This document shows positions 48,368-57,424 of a stretch of DNA of 64,000 nt, one piece after another. How positions within the stretch are numbered: the stretch's first letter is position 1; every line of letters starts with the position of its first letter. The position numbers were made by a program. Where the stretch lies: the NCBI RefSeq assembly GCF_006345805.1, contig NC_043001.1, positions 30,814,001-30,878,000 of the forward strand, given 5' to 3'. Origin of the DNA: Octopus sinensis (Eukaryota).

Positions 48368-51300
48368 TCATCATCATTTGTGTGTCTGTGTTTGTCTCCC
48401 CTACCATCACTTGACAACTGATGTTGGTGTGTTTATTCCCCCCCCCCCATAATTTAGCAGTTTGGCAAAAGAGACCGATAGAATAAGTACTAGGCTTACA
48501 AAGAATAAGTCCTCCAGCATGGCCACAGTCAAATGACTGAAACAAGTAAAAGAATAAAAAAATATATATACATAGCTTTGTGTCTTGGTACCCATTAAAA
48601 ATCACATCATTGTCAACTTTGCTTATTATCTCTCAATTGTTGATAAAATTAGCACAAAAGATATGCTGGAATGGATTTAATCAACTCTGCTTCTCTCATT
48701 ATTATTTAGGAATATAATTATATTAGGAATATAATGAAGCTGGTTATATCTGTTTGTTACAATAATGACAAAGCATAATAGTGGTATATTCACTTGTGAT
48801 TACTCTAACATCAGGGAATCACAAAAACTATAAATGATTAACCTGAATATTTAAGTCACAGTCTTTTAGTATTTAGCAATCTGTCTCTTTGTAAAGAGAA
48901 AAAAGTTGCACAAGGGCCTCCAACTATAAAGGAAAATTCCAGTTTTTGAACACCCCTTCACTCACAAATGGTTGAAAGAGGTTCACTTAGCATACTTTTA
49001 TGAGGAGTTGGTAGCAGAAATGGTCGAGTTCTGAAATAAATCCCTTATATTTAGTTAATAGCCCTTTACGTTTTGAGTTTAAATCTTGTCAGAATCAAAT
49101 GCTCCTTTTACTTTTCAGGGTCGATAAGATAAATACCACTAAAAAAATCAGAGGTAGATTTCATTGTTCCTCTTTCCCAAGAATTTGTTGCAGTATACCA
49201 AAAATCAGAAATGAATATTGTTATTTATTTGTAGTTATTGTTCTTTTTATTTTATAATTAATTAAAACATCTTATTAATCAATTTTGAATGAAATATGTT
49301 TGCTTATTACTATTGCTATAGGATCAATAATGACTAGATCTTTGGATGACAATAAATTCTGTTCATTCCCTCTAGGTCTTCCTTTCATTAGGGCCACATA
49401 TCCTTGTTAATCAGAAGCTTTGAATTTATGGCGTCAATCATCTTAACCAAATTTTGTTTGAGCCATCTTACATTAAAATCAAGATATTTTATTTTTACCA
49501 TTTTCTGATTTTTCTTTCGTGTTTTCTGTTTTTCATCCTCAATACATGGGTTGGATAGTTTCTTGTCTCATGTGTTGACATTCTTATACTCTTGGAGCAA
49601 TTGTTTTTGCAGCTGGATGCTCTTTCTTCCACTAGCCACTCAACTGTGAAGTAAGAGTGGAATTTATTGTCAACTTGCAGGACAGAGAGGCAAATAGTCA
49701 TGCCTTGTCCAAGGGTACAAAACAGTGGCTGTACTAATGAATGAACTTATGACCATATGGTCATTAGTCCAAAACAAGTCACAGCCATCTGTTACATTTT
49801 ATTTTATTTTTATTCTATTTAAGTTGTAAATATCAATATTATCACACCTTTATTATTCCAGTGATTTTTAGCTACATTCTTCTGTTGACATCATTCATGT
49901 TTTACCATTTTATCATTGATTACTTGTATCACTCATTTACTTCTGCTATATTCATAAATCTGCTTCTATATTGAATTCAACCTCTCTTGCTCTTCTCTAC
50001 TCTTATAGATTTATTAAATATTCTAGTTTACTATATAAGACCTACCTCATTACATATACACACAAAGTTATTGCACATACTCTTGTTTTGATATAGCTAG
50101 AAGAGGAGCTCAGCATTTATTAATACACAACATATACACCTAGCCTCTTGCTTCAACACAACCTCTAATACATTATATTTGATTTCTGGACTGGGCTGTA
50201 TGTTGATTCCTGGGCTGTGTGTTGTGTTTTGTGCAAAACGCTTTATTTCATATTGTTCCAGTTCACTCAGCTGTAGAAATGAGTTGTGATGTCACTGGTG
50301 CCCAGCTGTGTTGGCTTTTGCCTTTGCCCTTGGGTAACATTGGTGGTGTGAAGAGGGGAGCCTGGTATGCATTGGTGACTGCTGGTCTTCCATAAACAAT
50401 CTTGCTCAGAGTTCTGCTTCAGAGGATAACTTTCTAGGTGCAATACCATGGTCATTCATGACTGAAGAAGGTTTTTACCCTTTACACACACACACGCGCG
50501 CGCGCACACACACATGCATGCATTAGTTGCTTCAGAATTGATTAAAAAGAAGTACCTCTCATAAAGTGAGAAATATGTTGATTTAATTAACTTCATAATT
50601 CCTCTGTAAATTTGGATTTTGTAATGTAAGAATAATATCATCCTTATTGATATTATCAGCATTAAGGTGGTGAGTTTGTAGAATCCGTAGCCCATCAGAC
50701 AAAATTCTTAGCAGCATTTTTCTGGCACTTTACGTTTTGAGCTCAAATCCTGTTGAGGTTAACCTTGCCTTTTGAGTTGATAAAATAAGTAGCAGTTATC
50801 AACTAACACCCACCTCACCCCTAAAATTGCTAGCCTTGTGCCTAAATTCAAAACCATTCTTATTATCTTATCTATTTGTTTAATTCTAATTCCAACACTA
50901 ACTTCAGTTTTCAGTCTGCTAATGTAATATTTTTAAAACTGATGCTTTTATTTCTTACAGGCAGGGGGCTCGTTAGGGGATGGCTATGACAGAGAAGCAT
51001 CTCCCCATTCAGCTAATGAGTATTTTGTGGGCCTGAGTATCCCAGGTGCTATCGAGGTATTAGCAACGTTCTTTCATAAAGCTGAATGGCTTTATTTTCA
51101 ATTAATGTCTATGTACTCAAAAATGTGAATTCATTTTTTTTTTTTTTAGATTATAAAATGTTCTAAAGTCACGGCTTCTTTAATTCCTTTTATATTAGAT
51201 GGTTGCAATGATCAGAAAAATGAGAAACATTGCAGACAGCTTCTTCCCTAACCTTGAAAATGTTTTAAAAATAATAAAACAATGAACAGCAATTCCCTTA

Positions 51301-55719: not shown

Positions 55720-57424
55720 TATATATACATGTATACATATATGTACCACTGAATGAACAAGCAAAAGAATGTAGCATTCAACTTTTGTGTTGTGGAAGTT
55801 TTTTTGATGGTCCCAAAATCTCTTTAGATGAAGCAGGACAGGGAGGTGAAGTTTTCCCTATCCCTACTTCTGAAGGGGTGCATGTGAAGGCTCTATTTCA
55901 TCCATTAGAGTTATGCCTATGTTATATCTTGTGGTGCCATCAGATTATGTAAGGGTGTCTCTCTTGATTACAGCCTTTGAGAGGTAGGATCCTCCTAGAG
56001 GTAGTTGATAAAATTTTGTAAGTTAGTGGCTGAGATTTGGAGTTGTCACTGTGTGGGTGTCTATTTTTATCTGTTGGAGTGTGCAGTGTTTATTGTAGTA
56101 TCCAGTAGCTAATCTTGATATTATGAGGGTTGAAGATTTTATACTATGTATGAGTCTTTGGAAAATGATCTTTTTAATTAGTGTCAGAAAGCTAGCTATA
56201 TATATATTACTATGTTTTTTCTGCCTTATCTATATTATTAAATTATATTATTCCGTACCTTGAATATTGTTTGACTGAGATTCTCATTAACAGTTCGCTT
56301 TAATTCAAGTGCAAATTTAGGTGGTCAAGGGTTGTGATATCACTTTGGCACTGAGGCTAGCACAATTGTACAGTTTACTGTAAATATGGCATTGTTTCGT
56401 TTTTATTCATCCATGTTATTTAATATGTATAAGTTCATTCATATGTGTGTGGATGATGATGATATCCATTTAATGTTGACTGCTGGAAGAATTGTACCCA
56501 ATACCACTGTTGAGATTTATAATATATTTATCTTGATCAAATCAATTTCTTGCTACACTGAAGTTTCACCTGTGCACTCACAGGGTCATCAGGCAGTTTA
56601 TGAATAAAATCAATATTGATATTAATATAATTTTTCATTGTTTATTTTATGCTTTTAAATATGGTGTAATTAAAGGATAATTTGATTGTCATTACTAGTA
56701 ACTTCAGTAACTCCATATAAGTTCCTTTTAAACTTATTTATGTAGATATAGATAATAAGATAATGTACACATTAAAACATACGGATATAATTATATTAAA
56801 ACATGCATATAACTATATACACACATTAAAAACAAAATCAACCAAAAGACATTAATCACCAAACTCTCTTGAAATCTCATTTGTATTTTATTTTTAAAAT
56901 TATTTAATGTTGATATTATTTTAATTTATTTTTGTATGTTTCTCTGTTAAAATTTTTGTTTTGTTGATTTTTTTCTAATAATTTGTTTTGCTTTTCAAAA
57001 CCAGTTCATAAATCTTGTTTTCATTTTAATTTTTTTTTTCCATCATATTTATCTAAAATTCAAGTTTTAGATTTTCAGAATCTTTGTTTTATATTCTTTC
57101 AGTCTATGGTCCTAAACATTTTTTTTTTTGTTTTGAAAACGCTAAATAATAGAATTATATTTTACATATATGGAAAAAGCAAATAAATTGACATATATCT
57201 GTCTGTCTGTAGAGTTTGCTTAAAAATGGTTTGCCTGTTTATCTCCCCCTCATCTAGGATGGATCTGTGCGTGGAGATGGTTACAAACATCAGCAAGGCA
57301 TACTTTCTTTAATTTCCCCACACACAAAGCATGAGCTGTTCCAAGGCCTCACTGTGGCTCGAGCAGCCAAGGTTTGTATGCTTAAAGAAAATGTATATAT
57401 AATACTACATAATATACATAATAC

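What the first reader, a model, noticed from the sequence alone, without database searches (positions are those of the whole stretch)
50961..57371. Candidate mutually exclusive exon pair swapping the GDGY-SPH loop of a prolyl 3-hydroxylase
Seen: two intact, homologous phase-0 exons 6.2 kb apart, A (GDGY-DREA-SPHSANEYFVGLSI) and B (GDGY-KHQQGILSLI-SPHTKHELFQGLTV). I found no other P3H-like exon between them. They are highly diverged yet keep the motif residues, frame and splice sites, which implies selection on both. Known: vertebrate P3H1 has one such segment, with a 4-residue spacer like A. Inference: alternative use gives two enzymes differing in a loop that may contact substrate. Both lengths are multiples of 3, the intron is long and all sites are GT-AG, so NMD, steric clash and U2/U12 incompatibility cannot explain exclusion; RNA structure or protein factors would have to. 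I know of no report of this in P3H genes.
Basis: partly seen in the sequence, partly recalled or inferred. Interest (0 to 1): 0.82.

Follow-up and report, generated by a model that had tools for sequence, protein, structure and literature searches.

The report
Alternative loop exons in octopus P3H
An octopus collagen prolyl 3-hydroxylase gene carries two diverged copies of the exon for a flexible loop beside its catalytic core; snails, clams and a worm have the same pairing, so one gene probably makes enzyme variants, but strict either-or use is not shown.

Summary
Exon A (50961-51056, 32 codons) and exon B (57258-57371, 38 codons) are intact, phase 0 and AG/GT-flanked. They are the only two matches in the window to a profile of this segment built from other animals. 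The window holds the middle of an Octopus sinensis/vulgaris leprecan-family P3H gene.

B is the default cephalopod exon: four cephalopod proteins carry B alone. The only public protein found with A, an O. sinensis model, carries A and B in tandem. No A-only octopus protein was found, so mutual exclusion is not shown.

The short-spacer/long-spacer pair occurs in the same order in Aplysia, Bulinus, Ostrea and Ruditapes models. Other relatives carry the short copy alone, the long copy alone, or neither. An annelid gene gives two forms that differ only in this segment.

A keeps 10 of the 11 family-conserved positions while differing from B at 14 of the 17 variable ones. That pattern indicates purifying selection.

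The segment encodes a flexible hairpin-like loop plus a core strand. The known P4HA1 exon 9a/9b switch alters the corresponding loop. I found no report of this in P3H genes.

The parts
35455..35652 (+). P3H exon E1 (residues 375-440 of the O. sinensis model P0002); first exon of the gene seen in the window
   Evidence: tblastn of P0002; AG/GT borders
38167..38220 (+). P3H exon E2, 18 codons, phase 0/0; a cassette exon that one transcript-derived octopus protein (P0003) skips
40359..40503 (+). P3H exon E3
42016..42079 (+). P3H exon E4
43531..43594 (+). P3H exon E5
44773..45123 (+). P3H exon E6; ends in phase 0 at the donor that must join to A or to B
50961..51056 (+). Exon A: 32 codons, short type (4-residue spacer between the GDGY and SPH motifs), the alternative copy
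51057..57257 (+). 6201-nt intron between A and B; holds no further P3H-like open stretch, only (TA)n/(CA)n tracts and repeats
57258..57371 (+). Exon B: 38 codons, long type (10-residue spacer), the default cephalopod copy
57372..57521 (+). Open read-through into the intron after B; used as the C-terminus of the truncated O. vulgaris model P0001. It runs through a (TA)n tract, and the model's tail departs from the window's reading there.
58547..58591 (+). Alternative terminal exon: 14 codons plus TGA, acceptor TTTTCAG|. It matches the C-terminal tail of the transcript-derived protein P0003 at 12 of 14 residues, counted by eye.

Best explanation
The window holds the middle of an Octopus (sinensis/vulgaris) leprecan-family prolyl 3-hydroxylase gene.

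Shown:
- A and B are tandem duplicates of the one exon that corresponds to human P3H1 residues 492-523.
- The exon encodes the stretch after the first helix of the catalytic domain: the GDGY-spacer-SPH hairpin-like loop, then a core beta-strand and the start of the next helix.
- B (10-residue spacer) is the exon cephalopods normally use.
- A has the 4-residue spacer also seen in human P3H1 and in the short-type proteins of the set, and it has been kept under purifying selection.
- The same short-then-long pair sits in gastropod and bivalve genes, and an annelid gene gives two forms that differ only in this segment.

Inferred:
- Productive mRNAs carry one copy or the other. This gives two enzymes that differ in the length and sequence of a flexible loop.
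- In the related prolyl 4-hydroxylases the corresponding loop closes over the peptide substrate, so the switch would tune which collagen prolines are hydroxylated.
- Nothing in cis forces exclusion: lengths are multiples of 3, the intron is 6.2 kb, and all sites are GT-AG. The choice would therefore rest on trans-acting splicing regulators and on the two sub-optimal donors.
- A+B and neither-exon mRNAs would be minor or non-functional by-products.
For: Gene identity:
- The exon B query found 5 proteins with E<=10 among 8 candidates, all cephalopod P3H-like.
- The window's exons match the O. sinensis model P0002 at 330 of 330 residues and the O. vulgaris model P0001 at 329 of 330.
- Pfam finds TPR_leprecan and 2OG-FeII_Oxy_3 in P0002.

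B is the default exon:
- P0001, P0003, P0004 and P0005 (Octopus, an unnamed cephalopod-like protein, Argonauta) hold B only.
- B is closer to the long copies of 15 other molluscan segments (17.7 of 28 core positions) than to 9 short ones (14.1 of 28).

The pair is shared (47 proteins in all):
- 6 hold two copies. In the 5 molluscan cases (P0002, P0007-P0010) these are a 32-aa copy followed by a 38/39-aa copy.
- 15 hold a short copy only.
- 22 hold a long copy only.
- 3 hold an intermediate copy (35-36 aa).
- 1 (Ruditapes X6) holds neither.
- Owenia P0033 and P0034 are identical on both sides of the segment and differ only within it.

Selection on A:
- A keeps 10 of the 11 positions that are at least 80% conserved in 37 non-cephalopod segments. 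It equals B at only 3 of the 17 variable positions. Fisher one-sided p = 2e-4.
- Its ORF and AG/GT sites are intact.

Structure:
- In the B-only Argonauta model only 7 spacer residues (675-681) fall below pLDDT 50. The following strand (691-697) is confident.
- In the A+B model, 673-703 and 705-718 fall below pLDDT 50 (45 residues), while B from the SPH motif onward stays confident.

Parallel:
- Passages of PMC9676403 say that the hairpin loop of Cr-P4H and HIF-P4H-2 binds the peptide substrate, is disordered when unliganded and scores low in AlphaFold2. They also say the C-P4H-I splice variants alter that loop.
- P4HA1 exons 9a/9b are mutually exclusive (passages of PMC11868403).

The pair meets the three predictive criteria for mutually exclusive exons in PMC3228551 (passages).
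Against: - The only protein found with exon A (P0002, a computed O. sinensis model) has A and B together. The exon A query gave 1 protein with E<=10 among 15 candidates.
- No A-only cephalopod protein was found.
- A is far more diverged than B: 34.7 against 64.1 bits to the profile, and 13.1 of 28 core positions to both short and long copies of other molluscs.
- A 28-column tree puts A on a long, unresolved branch, not with the gastropod/bivalve short copies. Its orthology to them therefore rests on length, spacer and order only.
- Exclusion is not strict in relatives' models. Five further proteins hold both copies: four annotation models and P0012, which comes from a 2886-nt contig that can only be an mRNA. 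One Ruditapes model holds neither.
- No candidate competing RNA structure was seen.
- That the P3H loop corresponds to the P4H hairpin loop rests on the order of secondary-structure elements and partly on my recall.
Confidence: 0.5

Rival explanations
1. A is an optional cassette exon spliced in ahead of a constitutive B. The octopus would then make B and A+B forms. The A+B form would carry a 32-residue insert that lengthens the loop, and there would be no A-only enzyme.
For: - The one public protein with A has A+B.
- Both-copy proteins also exist for Aplysia, Bulinus, Ostrea and Ruditapes, and for one mRNA-sized contig (P0012).
- Inclusion keeps the frame.
- In the AlphaFold2 model of A+B the rest of the fold stays confident. 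B's second half sits in place and 45 residues loop out.
Against: - A keeps the SPH motif and the residues of the core strand (10 of 11 conserved positions). That conservation would serve no purpose in a disordered insert.
- 15 of the 47 proteins examined carry the short copy alone.
- Owenia shows an either-or pair.
- In Drosophila X-chromosome genes, only 90 of 16180 exons annotated as constitutive or differentially included share similar length, frame and homology with another exon (passages of PMC3228551). Annotation can therefore thread homologous alternative exons together, and such joint use is rarely genuine.
Confidence: 0.22
2. In octopus, A is a relic of the old pair that is no longer used, or is used only at noise level. 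B is effectively constitutive, and the model with A is an annotation artefact.
For: - All 4 other cephalopod proteins found lack A.
- A is the most diverged copy in the set.
- Its donor GAG|GTATTA matches the consensus at only 5 of 9 positions.
Against: - A has an open frame, both splice sites, and 10 of 11 conserved positions. Its differences from B fall on the variable positions (p = 2e-4). A neutral 96-nt stretch would not keep this pattern over the time needed to change 15 of 28 core residues.
- Other constitutive exons of this gene have equally weak donors: E4 and E5 also match at 5 of 9.
Confidence: 0.2
3. B (or A) belongs to a separate gene, or the duplication is an assembly artefact.
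For: None found.
Against: - Cephalopod proteins run from the exon ending at 45123 straight into B and on into the catalytic domain.
- A and B share only 13 of 28 core residues, so this is not a collapsed or duplicated assembly block.
- The same arrangement is seen in four other molluscan genera.
Confidence: 0.02

Closest known systems
Mutually exclusive exons 9a/9b of vertebrate collagen prolyl 4-hydroxylase alpha(I) (P4HA1)
   Same: - Both are collagen prolyl hydroxylases of the 2OG/Fe(II) class.
- Both have two homologous, frame-compatible alternative exons.
- The P4HA1 splice variants change the sequence of the substrate-binding hairpin loop just before the double-stranded beta-helix core (passages of PMC9676403; PMC11868403).
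   Different: - It is a different enzyme family (P4H alpha against leprecan/P3H) and a different phylum.
- In P4HA1 the exclusive use is shown by experiment. Here it is not.
- Here the two copies also differ in loop length (4 against 10 residues).
- The equivalence of the two loops is inferred from topology, not superposed.
Human P3H1 (PDB 8k0e and related entries)
   Same: - It has the same domain order (leprecan TPR region, then 2OG dioxygenase). It is the best sequence match in the PDB and the best fold match.
- The segment aligns to residues 492-523, with GDGY and SPH and a 4-residue spacer like A.
- Q526 and E527, just after the segment, contact CRTAP (PMC11381544, section 8).
   Different: - The solved chain holds one copy of the segment. 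Sections 7-10 of PMC11381544 do not discuss this loop or any alternative exon.
- The molluscan proteins are about 200 residues longer, with an extra degenerate beta-helix domain.
Predicted mutually exclusive exon clusters in the sense of Pillmann et al. 2011 (WebScipio)
   Same: It meets all three search criteria: similar length (32 against 38 codons, within the 20-aa default), same splice pattern and reading frame, and sequence homology (passages of PMC3228551).
   Different: Those criteria predict exclusive splicing but do not prove it. Here the only model that contains A also contains B.

Membership tests
Leprecan / prolyl 3-hydroxylase family | N-terminal leprecan TPR-like region | tested here: met
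   PF23557 matches residues 28-325 of P0002 (E 2e-73). P0002 matches the window's exons at 330 of 330 residues. The exons encoding this region lie outside the window.
Leprecan / prolyl 3-hydroxylase family | C-terminal 2OG-Fe(II) dioxygenase domain with the His-x-Asp...His iron ligands | tested here: met
   PF13640 matches residues 800-885 of P0002. H800, D802 and H868 are nearly invariant in alignment A1 and fall in the stretch that aligns to the human P3H1 catalytic domain. These exons are downstream of the window.
Leprecan / prolyl 3-hydroxylase family | Prolyl 3-hydroxylase activity on collagen | not testable with these tools
The name rests on homology to human P3H1 (E 3e-117 for the Argonauta protein).
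Mutually exclusive exon pair | Neighbouring internal exons with no other exon of the gene between them | tested here: met
   tblastn with P0002 and the profile search find nothing between 51057 and 57257.
Mutually exclusive exon pair | Similar length, same splice-site type and same reading frame | tested here: met
   96 and 114 nt, both phase 0/0, both AG...GT.
Mutually exclusive exon pair | Homologous sequences encoding the same structural element | tested here: met
   Both match the segment profile. They share 13 of 28 core residues, including 10 of the 11 conserved positions.
Mutually exclusive exon pair | Each mature mRNA holds exactly one exon of the pair | tested here: inconclusive
   B-only proteins exist. 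The only protein with A has A+B.
Mutually exclusive exon pair | A mechanism that enforces exclusion (frame/NMD, steric hindrance, U2/U12 incompatibility or competing RNA pairing) | tested here: not met
   Lengths are multiples of 3, the intron is 6201 nt and all sites are GT-AG. Inverted repeats are only (TA)n and other simple-repeat or interspersed-repeat copies. Duplex energies of 10 flank pairs lie within -1.7 to +1.8 SD of shuffles. Trans-acting control cannot be tested here.

The most novel reading that the evidence does not exclude
The A/B pair is one instance of an ancient alternative-exon switch in the single P3H gene of lophotrochozoans (molluscs, and at least one annelid). The switch swaps a short, ancestral-type substrate loop for a long one, so that one gene does by splicing what vertebrates do with three paralogues (P3H1-3). 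It would also parallel, independently, the exon 9a/9b switch in the hairpin loop of collagen prolyl 4-hydroxylase. In octopus, the A form would be a tissue- or stage-restricted enzyme with a different collagen site preference.
Probability: 0.3. Interest if true: 0.65.

Novelty: new member of a known kind. Interest (0 to 1): 0.5.

Why it matters
Prolyl 3-hydroxylation marks a few specific collagen sites. In vertebrates the sites are split between three paralogous enzymes.

If molluscs and annelids instead change the loop next to the active site by choosing between two old exon copies, three things follow:
- It gives a natural pair of enzymes for asking which part of P3H reads the collagen sequence.
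- It gives a second, independent case beside P4HA1 in which splicing retunes the same kind of loop in a collagen hydroxylase.
- It warns annotators that models threading both copies into one protein, as in several public records, may not be the working enzyme.

I found no report of such exons in P3H genes in the searched library.

Tried and rejected
- Third copy. The profile search of all six frames found none.
- Separate gene or assembly artefact. Rejected.
- Competing RNA pairing. The inverted-repeat scan of 45124-64000 gave 736 pairs, and the 25 longest are (TA)n and other simple-repeat or interspersed-repeat copies. Whole-region duplex energies for 10 pairs of 500-nt exon flanks did not differ from 30 mononucleotide shuffles each (z from -1.7 to +1.8). 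This method is crude and has no cross-species check, so it is weak evidence either way.
- Tree of the segments, to date the duplication. With only 28 ungapped columns, gastropod and heterodont-bivalve short copies group apart from the long ones. The Ostrea short copy sits with the Ostrea long copy, and octopus A sits on a long unresolved branch. No support values were read, so I draw no date from it.
- Mapping the loop onto P4H structures by sequence. The profile of alignment A1 against the PDB aligned only the beta-helix core of other hydroxylases, not this segment.
- The P3H1 cryo-EM paper. Six residue names within the segment were searched and none occurs. Sections 7-10 say nothing about 492-523.
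- Listing the other members of the O. sinensis and Argonauta protein clusters, to see A-only isoforms.
- Other cephalopod genomes. None of the open collections holds animal genomes, so tBLASTn of A and B against them was not possible.
- Octopus A-only and B-only isoforms. The exons were searched one by one.
- Supplementary figures. Figure S1 of PMC9676403, which shows the splice variants against the loops, could not be seen.
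Full report
**What is in the sequence**

Exon A lies at 50961-51056 and exon B at 57258-57371 on the + strand. A has 96 nt and B has 114 nt. Both are open, both begin after AG and end before GT, and both start and end in phase 0. The upstream exon likewise ends in phase 0 at 45123.

Each exon translates to five residues, GDGY, a spacer, SPH and sixteen more residues. The spacer is 4 residues in A and 10 in B.

To test against chance, I built a profile from 38 segments of other proteins. 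This was 38 of 42; the four Octopus-genus rows were dropped, but two other cephalopod B-type rows stayed in. I searched it against all 3431 open stretches of at least 12 aa in the six frames of the window. B scored 64.1 bits (E 8e-19) and A scored 34.7 bits (E 1.3e-9). The next hit scored 7.5 bits (E 0.4).

**Which gene**

I searched exon by exon.

- Exon B, lengthened by 9 nt to reach the tool's minimum, found 5 proteins among 8 candidates. All are cephalopod "prolyl 3-hydroxylase 1-like" proteins or unnamed relatives.
- Exon A, lengthened by 24 nt, found 1 protein among 15 candidates.

tblastn of the O. sinensis model P0002 (956 aa) places its residues 375-737 on eight exons between 35455 and 57371. 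Residues 1-374 and 738-956 have no match in the window, so the gene runs off both ends.

The window's exons equal P0002 at 330 of 330 residues and the O. vulgaris model P0001 at 329 of 330. P0002 has the leprecan TPR region and a 2OG-Fe(II) oxygenase domain. Its closest solved relative by sequence and by fold is human P3H1.

The segment aligns to human P3H1 492-523, which has one copy with a 4-residue spacer.

**Which exon do cephalopod proteins use**

- P0001 (O. vulgaris model), P0003 (octopus-like, transcript-derived), P0004 (unnamed, from contigs of at most 4.7 kb) and P0005 (Argonauta hians model) contain B only.
- P0002 contains A directly followed by B.
- No protein with A alone was found.

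So A and B are not both constitutive, but exclusive use is not shown either.

**The pair is old and widespread**

A search with residues 630-790 of P0002 gave 40 proteins among 711 candidates. The representative search gave 1312 hits, of which I read only the seven new ones that score above 450 bits. The 47 proteins divide as follows.

| Content of the segment | Number | Examples |
|---|---|---|
| Two tandem copies | 6 | In the five molluscan cases (Octopus, Aplysia, Bulinus, Ostrea, Ruditapes): a 32-aa copy with a 4-residue spacer, then a 38/39-aa copy with a 10/11-residue spacer |
| Short copy only | 15 | Mercenaria, Mactra |
| Long copy only | 22 | The other cephalopods, many gastropods, scallops; three of these have a degenerate first half |
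| Intermediate copy (35-36 aa) | 3 | Lingula, two Owenia proteins |
| Neither copy | 1 | Ruditapes isoform X6 |

The two Owenia (annelid) proteins are identical on both sides of the segment and differ only within it. That is what an either-or choice in one gene looks like.

Against strict exclusion, one both-copy protein (P0012) comes from a 2886-nt contig that can only be an mRNA.

**Is A a live exon**

B resembles the long copies of other molluscs: a mean of 17.7 of 28 core positions, against 14.1 for the short copies. A is equally far from both, at 13.1. In a tree of the 28 ungapped columns A sits on a long unresolved branch. Its orthology to the short copies of snails and clams therefore rests on length, spacer and order.

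The way A differs is not random.

- Eleven core positions are at least 80% conserved in 37 non-cephalopod segments. A keeps 10 of them, and the one change, T to S, also occurs in 4 other segments.
- Of the 17 variable positions, A equals B at only 3.
- The one-sided Fisher p is 2e-4.

Together with the intact frame and splice sites, this argues that A has evolved as coding sequence.

The donors of A (5 of 9 matches to the consensus) and B (6 of 9) are no better than the weakest constitutive exons of this gene.

**What the exon encodes**

- In the AlphaFold2 model of the B-only Argonauta protein (mean pLDDT 82.9), the segment follows the first helix of the catalytic domain. Only seven spacer residues (675-681) fall below pLDDT 50. 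They are flanked by short bridge residues. Then comes a confident strand (691-697) and a helix.
- In the model of the A+B protein (mean pLDDT 81.3), 673-703 and 705-718 fall below 50. That covers nearly all of A and the first half of B. B from the SPH motif onward keeps its place.

So the second half of the exon is a core strand, and the first half is a flexible loop whose length differs between A and B.

Passages of PMC9676403 give the parallel in prolyl 4-hydroxylases. The hairpin loop ahead of the beta-helix core closes over the peptide substrate in Cr-P4H and matters in HIF-P4H-2. It is disordered without ligand and scores low in AlphaFold2. It is the part changed by the C-P4H-I splice variants. 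Those variants are the mutually exclusive exons 9a/9b of P4HA1 (passages of PMC11868403).

That the P3H loop is the counterpart of that hairpin loop is my inference from the order of elements (strand, helix, loop, strand, helices, core). No residue-level superposition could be made, and a profile search of the PDB did not align this part.

In human P3H1, Q526 and E527, just after the segment, touch CRTAP (PMC11381544 section 8). Sections 7-10 of that paper do not discuss 492-523.

**Mechanism of choice**

Frame, intron length (6201 nt) and splice-site class do not force exclusion. The longest inverted repeats around the exons are (TA)n tracts and other simple-repeat or interspersed-repeat copies. 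Crude duplex energies between exon flanks are within the range of shuffles. If the choice is exclusive, it must depend on trans-acting factors. This step is inferred.

**Verdict**

The pair meets the three published predictive criteria for mutually exclusive exons (PMC3228551, passages). It fails or leaves open the two that matter most: one exon per mRNA, and an enforcing mechanism.

| Reading | Confidence |
|---|---|
| Functional mRNAs carry one copy, with B by default and A as a minority alternative | about 0.5 |
| A is a cassette exon added to B | about 0.2 |
| A is a relic that octopus no longer uses | about 0.2 |
| Separate gene or assembly artefact | 0.02 |

Searches of the paper library found no description of alternative or duplicated exons in P3H genes.

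- "prolyl 3-hydroxylase" with "mutually exclusive": 11 papers hold both terms. Ten were listed, and none has either term in its title or abstract.
- "prolyl 3-hydroxylase" with "tandem exon duplication": 0 papers.
- "prolyl 3-hydroxylase" with "alternative splicing" and "mollusc": 0 papers.
- "mutually exclusive exon" with P3H2: 1 unrelated paper.
- "mutually exclusive exon" with LEPRE1: 0 papers.

Subscription journals and supplementary files were not searched.

It is a new member of a known kind, of moderate interest. The wider point is the recurrence of the pair across molluscs and an annelid.

**Left open**

- No animal genome collection was available, so other cephalopod loci stayed unchecked.

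Noticed in passing
window 58547-58591 (+) and 57372-57521 (+): There are two ways to end the protein right after exon B. One is a 14-codon alternative terminal exon, used by the transcript-derived protein P0003. The other is read-through into the intron, used by the O. vulgaris model P0001. Both give products that lack the catalytic beta-helix and recall the non-catalytic CRTAP-type relatives.
   Followed up: partly
window 38167-38220 (+): This 18-codon phase-0 exon (E2) is skipped in P0003. It sits in the upstream degenerate domain, at the position that corresponds to the A/B exon in the catalytic domain (after the strand-helix unit).
   Followed up: partly
window 35455-45123 (+), residues about 405-590 of P0002: The molluscan P3H proteins carry an extra, degenerate beta-helix domain between the TPR region and the catalytic domain. 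It has the same order of strands and helices, only a sub-threshold Pfam 2OG match at 545-581, and no HxD. The fold search also returns the double-domain hydroxylases Tpa1 and OGFOD1.
   Followed up: partly
P0009 against P0032 (Ruditapes philippinarum isoforms X3 and X6): Besides the loop segment, the two isoforms differ at a few scattered residues. Four lie around the HxD motif and the following strands, and one lies near the C-terminus. The cluster near HxD hints at a second pair of near-identical alternative exons in the clam gene.
   Followed up: no
window 57425-57475, 48290-48368, 53713-53760, 54270-54330: A long (TA)n tract lies about 50 nt after B's donor, and others lie in the introns before and after A. 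The tracts are self-complementary and could pair, but nothing sets them apart from ordinary microsatellites. The tail of P0001 departs from the window's reading within the tract after B.
   Followed up: no
window 1-35454: No P3H exon for residues 1-374 was found upstream of 35455. The preceding intron is therefore longer than 35 kb, or the upstream exons lie elsewhere.
   Followed up: no
window 61478-61672 (-), 6970-7862 (-), 45611-46004 and 47943-48553, 62562-62690 with 63871-63999: Several mobile-element remains are present:
- a partial Transposase_1 (mariner-type) match at 61478-61672;
- open frames at 6970-7862 with no Pfam match, which look transposase-like to me by eye;
- two copies of an interspersed repeat in the intron before A, 84-91% alike;
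- a 129-nt inverted repeat, 93% complementary, whose arms enclose a 178-aa open frame at 63001-63534 (-) with no Pfam match.
   Followed up: partly
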